In this document: positions 1 to 51,397 of the stretch, in pieces | Layout: each line of letters opens with the position of its first letter | How positions within the stretch are numbered: position 1 is the stretch's first letter | IMG/VR virus record: IMGVR_UViG_3300045988_030125 | DNA length: 51,397 nucleotides | DNA from: a virus | Direction: 5' to 3' (one strand) | Program-made: the position numbers and the translations under genes | The notes under the pieces: generated by a model | Told to the model about the DNA's origin: nothing | Databases searched by the model: none | Seen by the model: only the letters and a program-made list of their open reading frames with translations

Positions 1-55
1 TACTGATAAGCTACCAGGGTCACCGCCCTAACCAATAACCAAACAAACAAACAAA
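1..55. repeat. 55-bp terminal identity, left copy (identical to 51343-51397)
   Basis: Direct comparison shows that the first 55 nt equal the last 55 nt. This length matches a common de Bruijn k-mer overlap for a circular contig. Confidence 0.95.
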
Positions 56-59
56 CAAA
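40..59 (+). repeat. (CAAA)x5 microsatellite
   Basis: Read directly: CAAACAAACAAACAAACAAA. Confidence 0.9.
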
Positions 60-96: not shown

Positions 97-225
97 GGGC
101 CTGTCGAACGTAACCGTAGGGGCCAGCTAACTCGTGTTAGCCAGGCTTTCGTGACCCGCCCCTGTCGAACGTACTAAGGGGGCTGTCGCACGCTAACCGA
201 GGCCCTGCCCTGTCGAACGTAACCT
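97..225 (+). repeat. Cluster of direct repeats with core CCTGTCGAACGTA (three exact cores plus one variant)
   Basis: CTGTCGAACGTA starts at 101, 162 and 210. The variant GCTGTCGCACGCTAACC lies at 182-197. A further copy of CTGTCGAAC starts at 51279. Confidence 0.85.
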
Positions 226-234
226 ACCCCGTGA

Positions 235-289
235 TGTGACGCAGAACACACCTTATCAAGTTGACAGCCACTTAGCGCCTAGCTAAGCT
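235..289 (+). promoter_or_regulatory. Promoter P1 with upstream CRP-like box
   Basis: TGTGA-cgcaga-ACACA lies at 235-250. TTGACA is at 261-266, followed by a 17-nt spacer and TAAGCT at 284-289. Confidence 0.6.
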
Positions 290-295
290 TGAGTT

Positions 296-573
296 ATCGG
301 CAAGGGAAACCCGGCAAGGACGCGAAAGCGACCGCCGAGACGGCCCGGGCGAGGACCTTAGTCCGAATGGTCTTTGTGAACTGAATTACACACAGGGGCG
401 AGGCTTGCACCTGCCGAAAAGTTGGCAACTTTTCCATCGCCTGTGTCGGCTAGGATGCGAACACGCTGAAACTTTACGTTCGGTCAGTAAAATAAGCGTG
501 CACACATGCCTAGGGCCGCTAGAATGACTTTGTACTGACAAAGTGGCGAGTTCAATTCTCGCACGGCTCACCA
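296..573 (+). ncRNA. Candidate structured non-coding RNA ending in a tRNA-like T-arm/acceptor/ACCA
   Basis: The region lies downstream of P1 and has no credible ORF. It contains hairpins GGGAAACCC (304-312) and CGCGAAAGCG (321-330), an 8-bp stem 416-423/427-434 and a long-range stem ACACAGG/CCTGTGT (about 389-395/440-446). It ends with T-arm GCGAG-TTCAATT-CTCGC (546-562), then ACGGCTC, A and CCA (563-573). Confidence 0.45.
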
Positions 574-591
574 AGATTCTGAACAACCAAA

Positions 592-647
592 TGTGACGCG
601 GTTCACACGCTGTCAGCTTGACACGGCCCCCAGGGGTCCGATAGACT
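592..647 (+). promoter_or_regulatory. Promoter P2 with perfect CRP-like box
   Basis: TGTGA-cgcggt-TCACA lies at 592-607. TTGACA is at 618-623, followed by an 18-nt spacer and TAGACT at 642-647. Confidence 0.65.
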
Positions 648-686: not shown

Positions 687-911
687 ATGCTCATGCTGTC
701 CGATCCCACCACCAACCGCCTGCCCGTGCTCCCCCTGCCGTTCCCCGACTACAGCTGCCTTAAGCACTTCTTCTCGCACGTGCCCGGCTTCAGCACCTAT
801 GACGCCGCCAAGTGGGCACAGATCACCGAACGCGCGTGCTACGGCGACAGGGTGGCCCTCGCCCGCCTTGACGCGGCTGGGTTCTCCCTGATGGTCACCA
901 CGCGGCTCTGA
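687..911 (+). CDS. hypothetical early protein (74 aa), paralog of 2219-2452
   Basis: The ORF is in the track. GAAGGG lies 9 nt upstream of the ATG. The C-terminal half aligns by eye with the 2219-2452 product. Confidence 0.7.
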   Translation: MLMLSDPTTNRLPVLPLPFPDYSCLKHFFSHVPGFSTYDAAKWAQITERACYGDRVALARLDAAGFSLMVTTRL

Positions 912-919
912 CCCCCCTC

Positions 920-946
920 GCCCGGCCCCCTCACCCGGGGCCGGGC
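920..946 (+). terminator. GC-rich hairpin after the first early gene (no U-tract)
   Basis: GCCCGGCCCC (920-929) pairs with GGGGCCGGGC (937-946) around a 7-nt loop. Confidence 0.5.
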
Positions 947-974
947 ACCCTCCCTCCACACAACCAAGGAAGCA

Positions 975-1247
975 TTGTGTACAACCCGAACTTGCCCCCT
1001 TATCCGCGGCCTCAAGGGCGACTTTGAGGTCATTATCGACACGGGCGAGGTGCTTAACGTGACCAGCAACCCCCGGCTTGCTTGCTACTTGGCGCGCTCG
1101 CTTGACCTGCCTATGCCCCGCGCTGACTGCCTTGTCGAGTTGGTTCACAGCGCCTGTCGTGGCAGCGTGCGTGTCGTCGAACTACTAGCACGGATGGACT
1201 GGCAAATTATTCAGCTTGACGCCGATACCTTGCCGTTCACGGTGTGA
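975..1247 (+). CDS. hypothetical protein (90 aa, TTG start)
   Basis: The ORF is in the track, with SD AAGGAAG at 966-972. Confidence 0.6.
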   Translation: MCTTRTCPLIRGLKGDFEVIIDTGEVLNVTSNPRLACYLARSLDLPMPRADCLVELVHSACRGSVRVVELLARMDWQIIQLDADTLPFTV

Positions 1248-1298
1248 TCCACATCACAACCTAACAAGTTGACAACTACCTAGCACCGTTGCTAGGCT
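1243..1298 (+). promoter_or_regulatory. Promoter P3 with perfect CRP-like box
   Basis: TGTGA-tccaca-TCACA lies at 1243-1258. TTGACA is at 1269-1274, followed by an 18-nt spacer and TAGGCT at 1293-1298. Confidence 0.65.
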
Positions 1299-1335
1299 GA
1301 AAGCACAAACCAAACCACACAGAAAGTGAAACACC

Positions 1336-1509
1336 ATGGCACTCCAATACTGGAATGACTGCTTGCAAGCCGCGCGCGACTTTGCCGGTGATTCCGCTGG
1401 CGACTTCGTCATTGAGGCACTGGCATCTGAGCTTTTCGACTGGTGCCCGAATCAGACACCTACGTTGAGCGAGAGTACACAGACGCCGAGATTCAAGCGT
1501 GCGACGTGA
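1336..1509 (+). CDS. hypothetical 57-aa ORF, possibly the N-terminal part of a frameshifted 1336-1805 product
   Basis: I translated this by hand; it is below the track cutoff. The leader AGAAAGTGAAACACC precedes the ATG strongly. The N-terminal 35 aa look protein-like, but the tail looks off-frame. Confidence 0.55.
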   Translation: MALQYWNDCLQAARDFAGDSAGDFVIEALASELFDWCPNQTPTLSESTQTPRFKRAT

Positions 1510-8117: not shown

Positions 8118-9533
8118 ATGACATTCAAGCCGCGCCACTACCAGGAACGTGTGCTGGAAGGGCTGGCAAACAGCAAAACGCCGTACACGGGCCTGGTAGG
8201 CGCGGGCCTAGGTACGGGCAAGACGGCAATGAGCGTGTGGAACGCGCTTAACGCTTTCGGTAGCACCATTGGGGACCAGATTATCCTGATCGTTGCCCCT
8301 GTCCGTACTGAGTCTGGCTGGCGCTCGCACTGGAAGACGCTTGCGGGCATCGACATGCGCACCTTGTCGGGGAAGAAAACAAAGGCCGCGCTTGCAGTGT
8401 GGGACGATCTTGAAAACCACGTCCCTGGTGTCTACTTCATCACATGGGAGCTTATGCGCTCACGTAACAAGGAACAGCGCTGGGACGGGCGCGCCAAGAA
8501 GATGGTGTACAAGTCCATGGCCCAGCCGTTCTATGGTGTCGAATTTGGGATGGTCATTGCCGATGAATGGCACCGCGCGTGCAACCATTCCTCGCTCAAC
8601 TTTGACGTAGCGCGACACATTAAGGCACAGTACCGCCTTGCGCTGAGTGCGACACCAGCGGGGAACAAGCCTTGTAACATTTGGGCAGCATTGAAGTTCT
8701 TGTGGCCTAACCATTACGGTGGATACTGGGACTTCTGTGAGAAGTTTTTTAAGGTTGAGCTTAACCCTTGGAGCGCATACTGGAAAGACTTTTCGGGAGA
8801 AAAGTACCCTGGCATGGTGCGTCGTGGCGCGCCGTCCTATCACGAGGTGAGCCAGGCTGAGGCCAACCCTGAGCTTCCTGGTGTCGTGATCCACCGTGTC
8901 GAAGTGGAGCTGACTAGGCAGCAGCGCAAACTTTACAACGAGCTGGAACAGAAGGCGCTCACGTTCCTAGGTGACCATCCGTTGGCGCTGTCGATCCCGA
9001 TGGAACTCGACACCCGCTTGCGTCAGATGACCCTGGGAGTACCTTCATTTAATGAAGACATGACTGTCGATTACAAGGAAGACTGCAAGTCGTCCAAGCT
9101 CGACGCCATGATGGACATTATCGCCGACCTCCCAGAGAATGAGCCTGTCGTTGTGTGGGTGCATAGCCAGAAGTTCATTAAGGCGGCGCTGCACCGTCTG
9201 AAGAAAGCTGGGATCAAAGCCATTGAAGTCTCTGGCAAGTCTCGTGGTGACTTCCAAGACATGATTAACGGCGACGTGCGCGTCATTGTCGCACAGCATG
9301 AAGCCATGTCAGAAGGAGTTGACGGTTTGCAGCGGGTGTGCCATACTGAGATATGGCTGAGCCAGTCAAACTCCCTGGTAATCAATGAGCAAGCAACGGG
9401 ACGACTCAACCGGCAGGGCCAGACTACAGTCGTTAACCGCTTCCTAATTCAGGCTACCAACACCGTGGACGACCGTGTTCTGGGACGCTTGCAGGAACGA
9501 TTCGACAAGCTCAAGGCATCCGGCCTTATCTGA
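8118..9533 (+). CDS. SNF2/DEAD-like superfamily-2 helicase
   Basis: The product has Walker A GLGTGKT, a DEWH box (VIADEWHR) and C-terminal helicase motifs (471 aa). Confidence 0.9.
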   Translation: MTFKPRHYQERVLEGLANSKTPYTGLVGAGLGTGKTAMSVWNALNAFGSTIGDQIILIVAPVRTESGWRSHWKTLAGIDMRTLSGKKTKAALAVWDDLENHVPGVYFITWELMRSRNKEQRWDGRAKKMVYKSMAQPFYGVEFGMVIADEWHRACNHSSLNFDVARHIKAQYRLALSATPAGNKPCNIWAALKFLWPNHYGGYWDFCEKFFKVELNPWSAYWKDFSGEKYPGMVRRGAPSYHEVSQAEANPELPGVVIHRVEVELTRQQRKLYNELEQKALTFLGDHPLALSIPMELDTRLRQMTLGVPSFNEDMTVDYKEDCKSSKLDAMMDIIADLPENEPVVVWVHSQKFIKAALHRLKKAGIKAIEVSGKSRGDFQDMINGDVRVIVAQHEAMSEGVDGLQRVCHTEIWLSQSNSLVINEQATGRLNRQGQTTVVNRFLIQATNTVDDRVLGRLQERFDKLKASGLI

Positions 9534-44447: not shown

Positions 44448-44469
44448 TTTGTTTCTCCTTTCTTTCGCG

Positions 44470-44540
44470 CTCCCAGACTAGGACTCGAACCTAGTCCGAC
44501 AGGGCCAAAACCTGCCGTGCTGCCATTACACTATCTGGGA
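44470..44540 (-). tRNA. tRNA-Gln (anticodon TTG)
   Basis: I folded the cloverleaf by hand. The acceptor is TCCCAGA/TCTGGGA, the anticodon loop TTTTGGC and the T-arm CTAGG-TTCGAGT-CCTAG. It is 71 nt long with no encoded CCA. Confidence 0.88.
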
Positions 44541-44611
44541 TAAACCCAGGCAGTCCCGGAGGACGCCTGGGAACTAAGTGCTGCATATGCAACAGTAGGC
44601 AATACTGCCCG

Positions 44612-44684
44612 TCGGAATGGTGAGACTCGAACTCACGGCCCCCTGGTCCCAAACCAGGTGCGCTACCTACTGCGCTACATTCCG
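44612..44684 (-). tRNA. tRNA-Pro (anticodon TGG)
   Basis: I folded the cloverleaf by hand. The acceptor is CGGAATG/CATTCCG, the anticodon loop TTTGGGA and the T-arm GTGAG-TTCGAGT-CTCAC. It is 73 nt long. Confidence 0.9.
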
Positions 44685-44846
44685 TTGGAAGGGGATGCTA
44701 TTCGGACGACAGAAACACACACTAAAAAGAGTCGTCCCTAGGGTGCTACCCCGCACGTGATCCCCCGATCACGACGGCTGGTCCATCCTCTTGGCCAAAG
44801 AGGCAGGCGACAAGGCCTAATCATCCAGCATTGTCCAGCCGCTTGG

Positions 44847-44931
44847 TGGTCCCCTTGGTGAGAGTCGAACTCACACTCCTTTCGGAACTCGATTTTGAGT
44901 CGAGCGCGTCTGCCTGTTCCGCCACAAGGGG
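44847..44931 (-). tRNA. tRNA-Leu (anticodon CAA), type II with a long variable arm and encoded CCA
   Basis: I folded the cloverleaf by hand. The acceptor is CCCCTTG/CAAGGGG, the anticodon loop CTCAAAA, the variable arm TTCCGAAAGGAGT and the T-arm GTGAG-TTCGACT-CTCAC. It ends in ACCA. Confidence 0.88.
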
Positions 44932-50564: not shown

Positions 50565-50655
50565 CTTAGGTAAGCCTAACCTTAGCATCGTGACTCTCAC
50601 CACCTAACCTAACTTAGGCTCACCTAACTTACCTACCCACTCCCTAACTTACCTT
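50565..50655 (+). repeat. Four copies of (C)CTAACTTA within 90 bp
   Basis: Read directly: ATAACTTAGG, CCTAACTTAGG, CCTAACTTACC and CCTAACTTACC. Confidence 0.75.
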
Positions 50656-50770: not shown

Positions 50771-50993
50771 AAGTAAATTACATACCTAGCAATGTAATTA
50801 CCCGCTTAATCTGTATGTAATACCCAAAGATAAGAATAATGTAAAGTACATATAAACAAGAAGGTTTCTATGATAATGTAATATAGGGGTATAGTATGTA
50901 TATATGTATTATATGTATGTAAATGTAAAAGCGTCAGATCATAGACGACAGTAATATACCCCCGGGGGGTATCCTTATTGAGAATGATTCTCA
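50771..50993. repeat. AT-rich island with ATGTAA(T/A) iterons and two palindromes
   Basis: ATGTAA(T/A) occurs at 50792, 50815, 50839, 50876, 50917 and 50923, with three further ATGTAT copies. ATACCCCCGGGGGGTAT lies at 50956-50972. GAGAATgATTCTC lies at 50981-50993. Confidence 0.8.
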
Positions 50994-51298
50994 TTATCAG
51001 TTCTCACCCTCCCTCAATTGTCCTGTCATTTACCCTATGCTATCTCTAAGCCCCTAACACCCCCTCAGAGCTACCCACATACCACTAACCCCCTAAAAGT
51101 CTCTCTACGCCCCTTCCAGACCCCTCCACGGCCATGCCAGCACCAACCACCTCCCTCCCAACCCACAACTCCCTCGCACACACACGCGCGTATAGCACAC
51201 CAAACCCAACCATGCAACTTAAACCACATCTTGAGATGTCAAGACAACACCAACCGTCTTGGCACCTAATTAGTGCCCCTGTCGAACACCCTCCAAAG

Positions 51299-51354
51299 TG
51301 TTACCCATTTCACACCATAAAAACCTTGACTTTCTCTCTCGATACTGATAAGCT
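51299..51354 (+). promoter_or_regulatory. Promoter P0 with CRP-like box; its -10 falls inside the 55-bp terminal identity
   Basis: TGTTA-cccatt-TCACA lies at 51299-51314. TTGACT is at 51326-51331, followed by a 17-nt spacer and TAAGCT at 51349-51354 (equivalent to positions 7-12). Confidence 0.5.
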
Positions 51355-51397
51355 ACCAGGGTCACCGCCCTAACCAATAACCAAACAAACAAACAAA
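51343..51397. repeat. 55-bp terminal identity, right copy
   Basis: It is identical to positions 1-55. Confidence 0.95.

What the first reader, a model, noticed from the sequence alone, without database searches (positions are those of the whole stretch)
296..573. ORF-free, promoter-driven structured RNA that ends in a tRNA-like 3' module with encoded ACCA
P1 (235-289) reads into about 280 nt that hold no credible ORF but many stems. These are GGGAAACCC (304-312), CGCGAAAGCG with a GAAA loop (321-330), GCCG-aga-CGGC (332-342), GGAC-ctta-GTCC (353-364) and a perfect 8-bp hairpin (416-434). The last is enclosed by a long-range stem, ACACAGG/CCTGTGT.

The 3' end is GCGAG-TTCAATT-CTCGC (a canonical T-arm, 546-562), then ACGGCTC, A and CCA. 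GGGCCG (513-518) can pair with CGGCTC as an acceptor stem.

Only about 58 nt separate the two acceptor strands, so this is not a canonical tRNA.

Counting back from the T-arm, positions 529-535 (TTTGTAC) look like a Thr(UGU) anticodon loop, and 536-540 look like its 3' stem. The 5' stem partner is absent.

The module could therefore be a new phage small RNA with a tRNA-like handle. It could also be a relic or attP-like copy of the 3' half of a host tRNA-Thr.
Basis: partly seen in the sequence, partly recalled or inferred. Interest (0 to 1): 0.65.

Follow-up and report, generated by a model that had tools for sequence, protein, structure and literature searches.

The report
Phage non-coding RNA ending in mini-tRNA
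A family of about 50-kb phages of mouth Actinomycetaceae makes, from its first early promoter, a roughly 280-base non-coding RNA whose last 61 bases fold into a stripped-down tRNA look-alike ending in ACCA; this is probably a handle for the host's tRNA-processing enzymes, and it matches no described RNA family.

Summary
Window 296-573 has no conserved ORF, lies behind a conserved TTGACA-17-TANNNT promoter, and is conserved in about 22 related phage contigs.

The last 61 nt (513-573) form a tRNA mimic:
- a 5-6 bp acceptor stem (GGGCCG/CGGCUC);
- a 6-9 nt linker (UAGRAU) in place of the D arm;
- a 7-bp hairpin with a tetraloop in place of the anticodon arm;
- a T arm with an invariant UUCAAUU loop;
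- A73 and an encoded CCA.

The T stem and the hairpin covary extensively. Acceptor plus T helix always total 12 layers (6+6 or 5+7). ARAGORN and Rfam find nothing here.

"TTTGTAC" is not a Thr anticodon loop; it lies inside the hairpin, which is GCCGCGC/GCGCGGU in relatives. The module is not an attP or tRNA relic: both acceptor strands are present, the stems covary, no integrase was found, and the RNA's invariant 19-mer has no copy in 185,579 species genomes.

CRISPR spacers point to Pauljensenia/Schaalia as host.

Best mechanism (inferred, about 0.45): the module is cut by RNase P and trimmed to CCA, like MALAT1/mascRNA. No terminator follows it, and in eight relatives the first early gene follows directly.

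It is a new RNA family of moderate interest.

The parts
235..250 (+). TGTGA-N6-ACACA palindrome-like site upstream of P1. It is probably an operator or activator site shared with P2 and P3.
   Evidence: The same motif lies 10-11 nt upstream of the -35 of P1 (235-250), P2 (592-607) and P3 (1243-1258). It is conserved in homologs. Function is inferred.
261..289 (+). Promoter P1: -35 TTGACA (261-266), 17-nt spacer, -10 TAAGCT (284-289).
   Evidence: Read. In homologs with an intact 5' region the -35 is invariant and the spacing is 17-18 nt. The -10 is always TANNNT (TAAGCT, TAGACT, TAGGCT, TAAGGT, TATTCT, TAATCT), and the spacer sequence varies. It falls below the sigma-70 scan threshold.
296..573 (+). 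The whole non-coding RNA, about 278 nt. The predicted 5' end is at A296, 7 nt after the -10. The 3' end is at the encoded CCA.
   Evidence: Conservation starts at ATC(G/A)(G/C)C(A/G)A, 6 nt after the -10, and ends at CACCA, in about 22 phage contigs. There is no conserved ORF. The RNA ends themselves are inferred.
296..350 (+). Variable 5' region of small GC hairpins: GGGAAACCC 304-312, CGCGAAAGCG 321-330, GCCGAGACGGC 334-344.
   Evidence: The number of roughly 33-nt units ranges from none (L039) or one (L009) up to three (L011). The CGCGAAAGCG unit is replaced in many homologs. This region is accessory.
364..391 (+). Conserved, mostly single-stranded segment GAUCUUUGUGAACUGAAUUACAC.
   Evidence: It is nearly invariant in alignment A1 and recognisable in the divergent group. 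No complementary target of 12 nt or more exists in the phage genome.
392..446 (+). Long-range stem ACACAGG (392-398) / CCTGTGT (440-446), enclosing two inserted hairpins with loops CUUGCA and YRGCA.
   Evidence: The stem covaries: ACACGGG/CCCGUGU, ACACGCG/CGCGUGU, and a full replacement GUGGAAA/UUUCCAC in L095. The inner hairpin stems covary. The inner hairpins are deleted in L039.
447..451 (+). CGGCU, which could pair with GGCCG (514-518) as an alternative to the acceptor stem.
   Evidence: This pairing is 100% compatible with alignment A1. It is broken in L097 and L124, where only 2 of 5 pairs remain while the acceptor helix persists. Any conformer switch is unproven.
452..511 (+). Long hairpin ending 1 nt before the tRNA-like module. 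Its apical stem is UUUAC/GUAAA and its 9-nt loop is GUUCGGUCA (478-486).
   Evidence: The stems covary. In L095, L119 and L149 the apical stem differs (UGUUG/CAACA, UGUCG/CGGCA) but the loop stays GUUAGGUCA. In L091, L138 and L097 the apex is swapped for a different hairpin.
513..573 (+). tRNA-like module. Acceptor GGGCCG 513-518 / CGGCTC 564-569. Linker CTAGAATG 519-526. 7-bp hairpin 527-533/538-544 with tetraloop 534-537. T arm 545/546-550, loop TTCAATT 551-557, 558-562/563. Discriminator A570. CCA 571-573.
   Evidence: The module is its own minimum-energy fold. Model R1 gives a single copy in the window at 77.8 bits, with the next hit at 14 bits. Covariation is shown. Acceptor pair 2:71 is G-U, A-U or G-C, and L149 has G1-U72 with G2-C71. 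ACCA is invariant. ARAGORN and Rfam tRNA/tmRNA models give no hit.
574..590 (+). Conserved A/U-rich trailer AAGAUUCUGAACAAC, directly after CCA.
   Evidence: Variants such as AAUUUUCUGAAC, AAAUUCUUGAAC and AUUUUAUGAAC follow CCA in the homologs. No intrinsic terminator follows. A role as a 3'-processing site is inferred.
592..647 (+). Operator-like site (592-607) and promoter P2 (TTGACA 618-623, TAGACT 642-647) for the first early ORF (687-911).
   Evidence: Found. P2 is absent in L043, L138, L095, L119, L097/L124, L148 and L149, where the first early gene starts 35-50 nt after CCA.

Best explanation
This is a real, conserved phage gene for a non-coding RNA of about 280 nt. It is transcribed from the first early promoter of a lineage of roughly 50-kb, apparently virulent siphovirus-like phages that probably infect oral Actinomycetaceae (Pauljensenia/Schaalia).

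Its 3'-terminal 59-63 nt mimic the acceptor/T half of a tRNA. They form a 12-layer coaxial helix with a canonical T loop, A73 and an encoded CCA. A short linker replaces the D arm and a plain hairpin replaces the anticodon arm.

The most likely mechanism is inferred, not shown. The module would be a built-in substrate for the host's tRNA-maturation machinery.
- RNase P would cut 5' of G513, one nucleotide after the long hairpin 452-511.
- tRNA-type 3' processing would trim the A/U-rich trailer back to CCA.

This would detach the structured RNA from the early mRNA that follows without a terminator. It would also give defined, exonuclease-resistant ends. The products would be either one 278-nt RNA with a tRNA-like 3' end, or a roughly 217-nt hairpin-terminated RNA plus a 61-nt mini-tRNA.

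The downstream role of the released RNA or RNAs remains unknown. Their conserved loops are GUUCGGUCA, CUUGCA and YRGCA, together with the conserved single-stranded segment.
For: Shown:
- About 22 homologs all sit directly behind a conserved TTGACA-17/18-TANNNT promoter.
- There is no conserved ORF.
- Structure counts are 99.5% and 98.5% paired, with many changes on both sides, against 26-49% for slid controls.
- In L001 the 3' domain is 96% identical to the window, while the adjacent gene is 68% identical in nucleotides and 47% in amino acids.

The conserved features are the ones bacterial RNase P reads:
- the acceptor plus T helix is always 12 layers (6+6 or 5+7);
- the T loop is invariant;
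- RCCA is invariant. RCCA pairs with the L15 loop of RNase P RNA (PMC4919922, read).

Decoding features (D arm, anticodon) are absent and the hairpin sequence is free to change.

Context:
- No intrinsic terminator follows.
- In L043, L138, L095, L119, L097/L124, L148 and L149 the first early gene starts 35-50 nt after CCA with no promoter between them, so a cut is needed to free the RNA.
- A stable hairpin ends 1 nt before the predicted cut.
- Two of three host tRNA genes seen next to the host CRISPR array encode CCA.

Precedents: phage-induced regulatory RNAs, tmRNA and 4.5S RNA are RNase P substrates, and MALAT1 is processed through its tRNA-like mascRNA (PMC4919922; PMC8457004).
Against: There are no expression or end-mapping data, so the transcript, its ends and any RNase P cleavage are all inferred.

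The acceptor-stem sequence (GGGCCG/CGGCUC), the linker UAGRAU and T-loop positions 59-60 are far more conserved than RNase P recognition alone should require. This hints at an additional sequence-specific partner.

The nucleotide at -1 is A or C, not the preferred U.

An alternative pairing of GGCCG with the upstream CGGCU is compatible with 20 of 22 sequences. The module may therefore not always be folded.

In the window's own subgroup the early gene has its own promoter P2, so separating RNA from mRNA is not strictly needed there.
Confidence: 0.45

Rival explanations
1. The mini-tRNA acts in trans as a decoy or sponge. It would mimic the tRNA acceptor end and titrate a host factor that recognises the acceptor stem, T arm and CCA. 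Candidates are a tRNA-targeting defence toxin (AbiEii/MenT-type nucleotidyltransferase, CapRel-type pyrophosphokinase), SmpB, or another tRNA-binding protein. It would be made at high level early in infection.
For: The sequences of the acceptor stem, linker and T loop are nearly invariant, while the hairpin and T stem covary freely. This suggests sequence-specific recognition beyond shape. The RNA sits behind an early promoter. Its topology matches the tRNA-like domain of tmRNA: no D stem, a helix in place of the anticodon arm, and no variable loop (the comparison rests on my own knowledge). This reading is compatible with the best explanation, because processing would release the decoy.
Against: No partner has been identified. 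No defence system is known for this host. The window encodes no recognisable RNA-binding or tRNA-related protein. The idea is purely inferential.
Confidence: 0.2
2. The RNA is a cis-acting leader of the early operon. Alternative pairing of GGGCCG, either with the upstream CGGCU (447-451) or with the 3' CGGCUC (564-569), would switch the fold and control expression or stability of the downstream early mRNA.
For: In the eight contigs of the divergent subgroup the first early gene follows with no promoter of its own. Both pairings are 100% compatible with alignment A1. RNAalifold prefers the upstream pairing.
Against: There is no terminator or RBS-sequestering helix to switch. The upstream pairing is lost in L097 and L124 while the acceptor stem persists. 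In the window subgroup a separate promoter P2 uncouples the gene. An invariant CCA has no role in such a switch.
Confidence: 0.12
3. The module is an aminoacylatable mini-tRNA, or a tmRNA-like domain that takes part in translation or ribosome rescue.
For: It has a 12-layer acceptor/T helix, A73 and CCA. It has a G-U wobble in the acceptor stem. Its topology resembles the tmRNA tRNA-like domain.
Against: G3-C70 is invariant. The wobble is at 2:71 and is replaced by A-U or G-C in some members, so the AlaRS/tmRNA determinant G3-U70 is absent. There is no anticodon. The candidate tag frame (ANTLKLYVRSVK) changes at second codon positions and is deleted in L091, L138 and L097. No Rfam tmRNA, mt-tmRNA or tRNA hit appears at E-values up to 10. 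ARAGORN finds nothing.
Confidence: 0.06
4. The module is a relic or attP-like copy of the 3' half of a host tRNA, as the first reader suggested as an alternative.
For: Many phages do carry tRNA 3' halves at attP. The same acceptor sequence ...ACGGCTCACCA occurs in tRNA-Lys genes and their att-site copies in unrelated viral contigs.
Against: Both acceptor strands are present and pair. The T stem exists in at least five covarying versions. The upstream RNA is conserved. No integrase was found among the ORFs scanned, and the gene content looks virulent. The RNA's invariant 19-mer is absent from 185,579 species genomes. No tRNA in IMG/VR shares the module's full 3' half.
Confidence: 0.02

Closest known systems
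MALAT1/MEN-beta with mascRNA/menRNA (vertebrate long non-coding RNAs with a 3' tRNA-like module)
   Same: A tRNA-like module of about 58-61 nt, with a reduced anticodon arm, sits at the 3' end of a longer non-coding RNA. A stable structure lies just upstream of the RNase P site. There is no conventional terminator or 3'-end signal. The size and layout are strikingly similar (PMC8457004 and bioRxiv 10.64898/2026.01.19.700226, both listed).
   Different: mascRNA is eukaryotic, its CCA is added after transcription, and it has a D-arm-like element. Here CCA is encoded, the D arm is replaced by a 6-9 nt linker, and the transcript is a phage early transcript. Processing has not been shown here.
tRNA-like domain of tmRNA, including the domain-only mitochondrial tmRNAs
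   Same: An acceptor stem plus T arm ends in ACCA. There is no D stem, a helix stands in place of the anticodon arm, and there is almost no variable region. tmRNA is also an RNase P substrate.
   Different: G3-U70 is absent, because G3-C70 is invariant. There is no tag reading frame. The domain is contiguous rather than closing a large loop. No Rfam tmRNA model matches.
C4 antisense RNA of phages P1/P7 and other phage-induced RNase P substrates
   Same: These are phage regulatory RNAs whose maturation depends on host RNase P recognising a tRNA-like acceptor end (cited in PMC4919922).
   Different: There is no sequence or family relationship. C4 has no T arm. The role of RNase P here is only inferred.
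Canonical tRNA, including D-armless mitochondrial tRNAs
   Same: Both have a 12-layer acceptor/T helix, a T loop of the UUCRANY type, discriminator A73 and CCA. A D-replacement loop of 6-9 nt occurs in D-armless mitochondrial tRNAs.
   Different: There is no 7-nt anticodon loop; the hairpin has a variable tetraloop on a 7-bp stem. The variable region is 0-1 nt. Neither ARAGORN nor Rfam tRNA models detect it.
Bacterial Y RNA (YrlA) tRNA-like domain
   Same: It is a non-coding RNA with a T-arm/acceptor mimic and no anticodon arm, sometimes associated with phages (PMC4201824, listed).
   Different: In YrlA the tRNA-like domain is internal and the RNA ends form a Ro-binding stem. Here the module is 3'-terminal with CCA, no Ro/Rsr gene was found among the ORFs scanned, and Rfam gives no hit.

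Membership tests
Canonical tRNA (Rfam RF00005 / ARAGORN) | Cloverleaf with a D arm and an anticodon arm (5-bp stem, 7-nt loop), detectable by tRNA models | tested here: not met
   ARAGORN finds only the three tRNAs at 44.4-44.9 kb. Rfam gives no tRNA hit at E-values up to 10. The middle element is a 7-bp hairpin with a 4-nt variable loop.
Canonical tRNA (Rfam RF00005 / ARAGORN) | 12-bp coaxial acceptor/T helix, T-loop consensus, discriminator plus CCA | tested here: met
   The helix is 6+6 or 5+7 layers, the loop UUCAAUU is invariant, and A-CCA is invariant in about 22 members.
tmRNA (one-piece, two-piece, or mitochondrial domain-only) | G3-U70 alanine identity pair in the acceptor stem | tested here: not met
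   Pair 3:70 is G-C in all members. The wobble is at 2:71 and is A-U or G-C in some members.
tmRNA (one-piece, two-piece, or mitochondrial domain-only) | Conserved tag-peptide reading frame with a resume codon and stop | tested here: not met
   The candidate frame changes at second codon positions and is deleted in L091, L138 and L097. No ORF is conserved.
tmRNA (one-piece, two-piece, or mitochondrial domain-only) | Match to tmRNA covariance models or ARAGORN tmRNA detection | tested here: not met
   There are no hits.
tmRNA (one-piece, two-piece, or mitochondrial domain-only) | Binding by SmpB and alanylation | not testable with these tools
   This needs biochemistry.
attP / relic of a host tRNA 3' half | Only the 3' part of a tRNA is present, identical to a host tRNA gene, next to an integrase | tested here: not met
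   The 5' acceptor strand is present and paired. The T stem covaries among phages. No integrase was found among the ORFs scanned. No identical 3' half occurs in IMG/VR tRNAs. The RNA's invariant 19-mer is absent from 185,579 genomes. The module itself was not scanned against host genomes.
RNase P-processed tRNA-like 3' modules (mascRNA type; phage C4 RNA type) | tRNA-like acceptor/T structure at the end of a longer non-coding transcript, with no terminator | tested here: met
RNase P-processed tRNA-like 3' modules (mascRNA type; phage C4 RNA type) | Cleavage by RNase P at the 5' side of the module and maturation of the 3' end to CCA | not testable with these tools
   This needs RNA end mapping or in vitro cleavage.
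Bacterial Y RNA (YrlA) | Ro-binding stem formed by the 5' and 3' ends; an rsr gene nearby; match to the Rfam model | tested here: not met
   The ends do not pair. No TROVE/Rsr protein was found among the ORFs scanned. Rfam gives no hit.
Any Rfam 15 family | Score at or above the gathering threshold | tested here: not met
   The only match is a sub-threshold minus-strand hit to Plastid-ycf2 (26-28 bits against a threshold of 65.7). It recurs in the homologs.

The most novel reading that the evidence does not exclude
The mini-tRNA is an active tRNA acceptor-end mimic, not merely a processing handle. A phage early RNA decoy would soak up a host factor that reads the acceptor stem and CCA. Candidates are an abortive-infection toxin that modifies tRNA 3' ends, or SmpB. 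The upstream hairpin loops would bind further partners. This would make it an RNA-based anti-defence or host-takeover device of a new type.
Probability: 0.15. Interest if true: 0.85.

Novelty: new variant of a known kind. Interest (0 to 1): 0.6.

Why it matters
tRNA-like ends are well known in plant RNA viruses, in tmRNA and in vertebrate MALAT1/mascRNA. A conserved, covariation-supported mini-tRNA with no anticodon and no D arm, ending an early non-coding RNA of a DNA phage, is not a described family; the tools available here (Rfam 15, ARAGORN and the paper library) returned no match or description.

If it is processed as proposed, bacteria-infecting viruses would be using the mascRNA trick. 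That means borrowing RNase P and tRNA 3'-end maturation to make and stabilise a regulatory RNA without a terminator.

The sequence conservation of the acceptor stem, linker and T loop goes beyond what folding needs. This raises the possibility of a specific protein partner.

The family also gives a compact natural example of the 12-layer acceptor/T rule, realised as 6+6 and 5+7.

Practically, the RNA gene is the most conserved DNA in these oral Actinomycetaceae phages. It is repeatedly targeted by host type I-E CRISPR spacers, which links the phages to Pauljensenia/Schaalia.

Tried and rejected
- Canonical tRNA, tmRNA or a known RNA family. ARAGORN and Rfam (gathering and E-value modes, on the window and four homologs) gave only a sub-threshold antisense Plastid-ycf2 hit.
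- Relatives among cultured phages. BLAST of 1-1400 and of 20001-45000 against INPHARED found nothing.
- A tmRNA tag ORF (GCG AAC ACG ... UAA, ANTLKLYVRSVK). Substitutions fall at second codon positions, and the region is swapped out in L091, L138 and L097.
- Thr anticodon loop. Rejected; see the interpretation section.
- Host tRNA relic or attP. Rejected; see the rival explanations.
- tRNA-Lys origin. The acceptor sequence equals that of many tRNA-Lys(UUU) genes and att sites in unrelated contigs. The T arm differs and the host tRNA-Lys could not be fetched, so this is treated as coincidence and left unresolved.
- Antisense targets in the phage genome for the conserved single-stranded segments. 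The longest complementarity is 10-11 nt, which is chance level.
- The apex as a DNA-level copy of the upstream CTGTCGAACGTAA iterons. They share a 9-nt identity, but the iterons differ between phages while the apex does not, and the apical stem covaries with the loop kept. The constraint is therefore at the RNA level.
- The long-range pairing from the single-sequence minimum-energy fold (338-350 with 508-520). It is broken in several homologs and only 86% paired.
- The terminator-like hit at 412-427. It lies in a variable inserted hairpin and is not conserved.
- A second copy of the module in the window. None was found.
- A prophage or host copy. The invariant 19-mer has no hit in genome contigs.
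- Literature searches for a described equivalent found none.
Full report
**What is in the sequence.**
The window is a circular assembly of about 51.3 kb; bases 1-55 repeat at 51343-51397. It encodes a phage:
- an SNF2 helicase, an AAA_24 ATPase, a family A DNA polymerase and a dCMP deaminase on the + strand;
- a capsid protein, a terminase, a 1746-aa tape measure candidate and an Amidase_2 endolysin with choline-binding repeats on the - strand.

No integrase was found among the ORFs scanned. Most early proteins match nothing in Pfam or PHROGs. BLAST against 50,697 deposited phage genomes found nothing.

The finding lies in the large intergenic region between the two divergent gene blocks. The one exception is GCCG-aga-CGGC, which is at 334-344.

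**The element is a conserved gene.**
An invariant 19-mer from the region, and patterns built on the 3' module, recovered about 22 contigs. Most are 49-53 kb phage contigs from IMG/VR and metagenomes.

Where the 5' region is intact, the element starts 6 nt after a TANNNT -10. This -10 is spaced 17-18 nt from an invariant TTGACA, and the spacer sequence varies.

There is no conserved ORF. The longest frames differ in phase and start codon, and two members have none of 20 codons or more.

Conservation is stronger than in the neighbouring gene. Against L001, the 3' domain is 96% identical. The adjacent gene is 68% identical in nucleotides and 47% in amino acids.

**Structure.**
I named a structure on a 15-sequence alignment and counted pairs. 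It gave 99.5% paired cells and 7 pairs with changes on both sides. Only 0-1 of 500 shuffles reached these values, and slid controls gave 26-49% pairing. The domains are as follows.
- *5' region (296-350).* Small GC hairpins whose number varies from 0 to 3 units.
- *Conserved segment (364-391).* Mostly single-stranded.
- *Long-range stem (392-398 with 440-446).* It is ACACGGG/CCCGUGU or ACACGCG/CGCGUGU in relatives and GUGGAAA/UUUCCAC in L095. It encloses two inserted hairpins with conserved loops (CUUGCA and YRGCA) and covarying stems.
- *Long hairpin (452-511).* Its apical stem covaries (UUUAC/GUAAA, UGUUG/CAACA). The 9-nt loop GUU(C/A)GGUCA is kept. In three members the whole apex is swapped for another hairpin.
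- *tRNA-like module (513-573).*

**The tRNA-like module.**
Folded on its own, 513-573 adopts the proposed shape as the minimum-energy structure (-22.2 kcal/mol, z = -2.9). A covariance model of the module finds one copy in the window at 77.8 bits; the next hit scores 14 bits.

The same model picked up divergent members (L138, L095, L119, L097/L124). A pattern built on the linker, T loop and ACCA added L148 and L149. In these:
- the 7-bp hairpin is GCCGCGC-N4-GCGCGGU instead of ACUUUGU-N4-ACAAAGU;
- the T stem is UUAGG/CCUGA or UUAGG/CCUAA.

On the combined alignment, 4 of 5 T-stem pairs and 4 of 7 hairpin pairs have changes on both sides, with 98.5% pairing.

The acceptor helix keeps its sequence (GGGCCG/CGGCUC). 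Its few changes still preserve pairing:
- pair 2:71 is G-U, A-U or G-C;
- L149 has G1-U72 together with G2-C71.

The acceptor and T helices always add up to 12 layers. This is 6+6 in the window group, where the outermost T layer is G·A, U·U or A-U. It is 5+7 in the divergent group.

The T loop UUCAAUU, A73 and CCA are invariant. The linker that replaces the D arm keeps UAGRAU. By contrast, only one of the phage's three true tRNA genes encodes CCA.

An alternative pairing of GGCCG with CGGCU (447-451) fits the first alignment equally well. It is lost in L097 and L124, where the acceptor helix persists. The long-range pairing seen in the single-sequence fold is broken in several members.

**What it is not.**
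- *Not a tRNA or tmRNA by any model*.
- *Not a tmRNA-type domain by its identity features.* G3-U70 is absent, and the candidate tag frame is neither conserved nor always present.
- *Not an attP or tRNA relic.* Both acceptor strands are present, the stems covary, the upstream RNA is conserved, and no integrase was found. The RNA's invariant 19-mer is absent from 185,579 species genomes. The same acceptor sequence occurs in many tRNA-Lys genes and att sites of unrelated contigs. The T arm differs, and I treat this as coincidence.

**Host and context.**
Three metagenomic CRISPR arrays carry spacers that match the RNA gene. Their repeat is GTTTTCCCCGC-N4-GCGGGGATGAGCC. In genomes, this repeat occurs in Actinomycetaceae (Pauljensenia, Schaalia, Actinomyces) and in some Corynebacterium.

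Spacers from three Pauljensenia genomes match the window, one of them inside the RNA gene. One metagenomic array is flanked by tRNA genes identical to those of Pauljensenia sp. 20925_1_34.

Contig L001 is a chimera. A CRISPR repeat and spacer are fused to the phage at the protospacer.

P1, P2 and P3 each carry a TGTGA-N6-(T/A)CACA site upstream of the -35.

No intrinsic terminator follows the CCA. It is followed by a conserved A/U-rich trailer. In eight contigs of the divergent subgroup (L043, L138, L095, L119, L097/L124, L148, L149), the first early gene starts 35-50 nt after CCA with no promoter of its own.

**Mechanism.**
What is shown: this is a conserved, structured, non-coding early-region RNA gene that ends in a tRNA acceptor/T mimic with an encoded CCA.

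What is inferred is how it works. The conserved features are those that bacterial RNase P and tRNA 3'-end enzymes read:
- a 12-layer helix;
- the T loop;
- RCCA, which pairs with the L15 loop of RNase P RNA (PMC4919922).

Decoding features are missing. A stable hairpin ends one nucleotide before the predicted cut. There is no terminator, and an mRNA follows.

I therefore favour a processing and end-protection role analogous to MALAT1/mascRNA (PMC8457004) and to phage RNase P substrates such as the P1/P7 C4 RNA (cited in PMC4919922). My confidence is about 0.45.

The acceptor stem, linker and T loop are more conserved in sequence than folding requires. This keeps open a trans-acting decoy role (0.2). 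A leader or conformational-switch role is less likely (0.12), and a translation-related role less likely still (0.06).

**Verdict.**
The finding is real and largely as described. It is a new RNA family that represents a new variant of a known theme, the tRNA-like 3' module. It has moderate to good interest (0.6). Its function is still to be established experimentally.

Noticed in passing
window 1-55 and 51343-51397: The window is a circular assembly with a 55-bp terminal overlap, so position 1 is an arbitrary cut. A promoter, TTGACT (51326-51331)-17-TAAGCT (51349-51354, equal to 7-12), spans the junction. It reads into the ORF-free stretch 13-290. In L039 this promoter region is fused directly to the RNA core, with P1 and the iterons deleted.
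   Followed up: partly
window 235-250, 592-607, 1243-1258: TGTGA-N6-(T/A)CACA palindromes of the CRP/GlxR type lie 10-11 nt upstream of the -35 of three successive early promoters (P1, P2, P3). They are likely a shared operator or activator site. They are conserved in homologs.
   Followed up: partly
window 101-218 and 51279-51287: Four direct copies of CTGTCG(A/C)AC(G)TAAC-like iterons lie upstream of P1, and one more lies near the window end. Their sequence differs between related phages. They may be an origin or protein-binding sites. The reverse complement shares 9 nt with the RNA's apical region.
   Followed up: partly
L034, L036, L046 (metagenome); L051, L058, L088 (Pauljensenia genomes); targets at window 371-399, 462-494, 708-740, 812-844, 2126-2158, 8148-8176, 8524-8552, 50600-50628: Type I-E-like CRISPR arrays (repeat GTTTTCCCCGC-N4-GCGGGGATGAGCC) carry spacers against this phage, several of them inside the RNA gene. 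This assigns the host to Pauljensenia/Schaalia-type Actinomycetaceae.
   Followed up: yes
L001 about 896-1500 (minus strand), IMGVR_UViG_3300022488_000007: This public viral contig is chimeric. A CRISPR repeat plus spacer is joined to the phage at the protospacer inside the RNA gene. Further upstream lie CTTTACCTTC-type low-complexity repeats and an AT-rich stretch.
   Followed up: partly
window 38-58; 50780-50930: There is a (CAAA)n microsatellite at the start of the window. There is also a sharply AT-rich island in the large non-coding region between the two gene blocks.
   Followed up: no
window 687-911, and loci L008, L039, L042, L044, L048: The first early protein (74 aa) has a distant paralogue (33-38% identity over 48 aa) about 1.5 kb downstream in the related phages. 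Neither has any Pfam or PHROG match.
   Followed up: no
window 44469-44931 (- strand): Of the three phage tRNA genes (Gln-UUG, Pro-UGG, Leu-CAA), only tRNA-Leu has an encoded CCA.
   Followed up: yes
L011 332-641 compared with L041 and L009: The 5' part of the RNA contains a unit of about 33 nt (ACGGACCAACCAGGGACCACCGAGACGGCCCGG). It is present 1, 2 or 3 times in otherwise near-identical phages, which indicates recent tandem expansion or contraction.
   Followed up: partly
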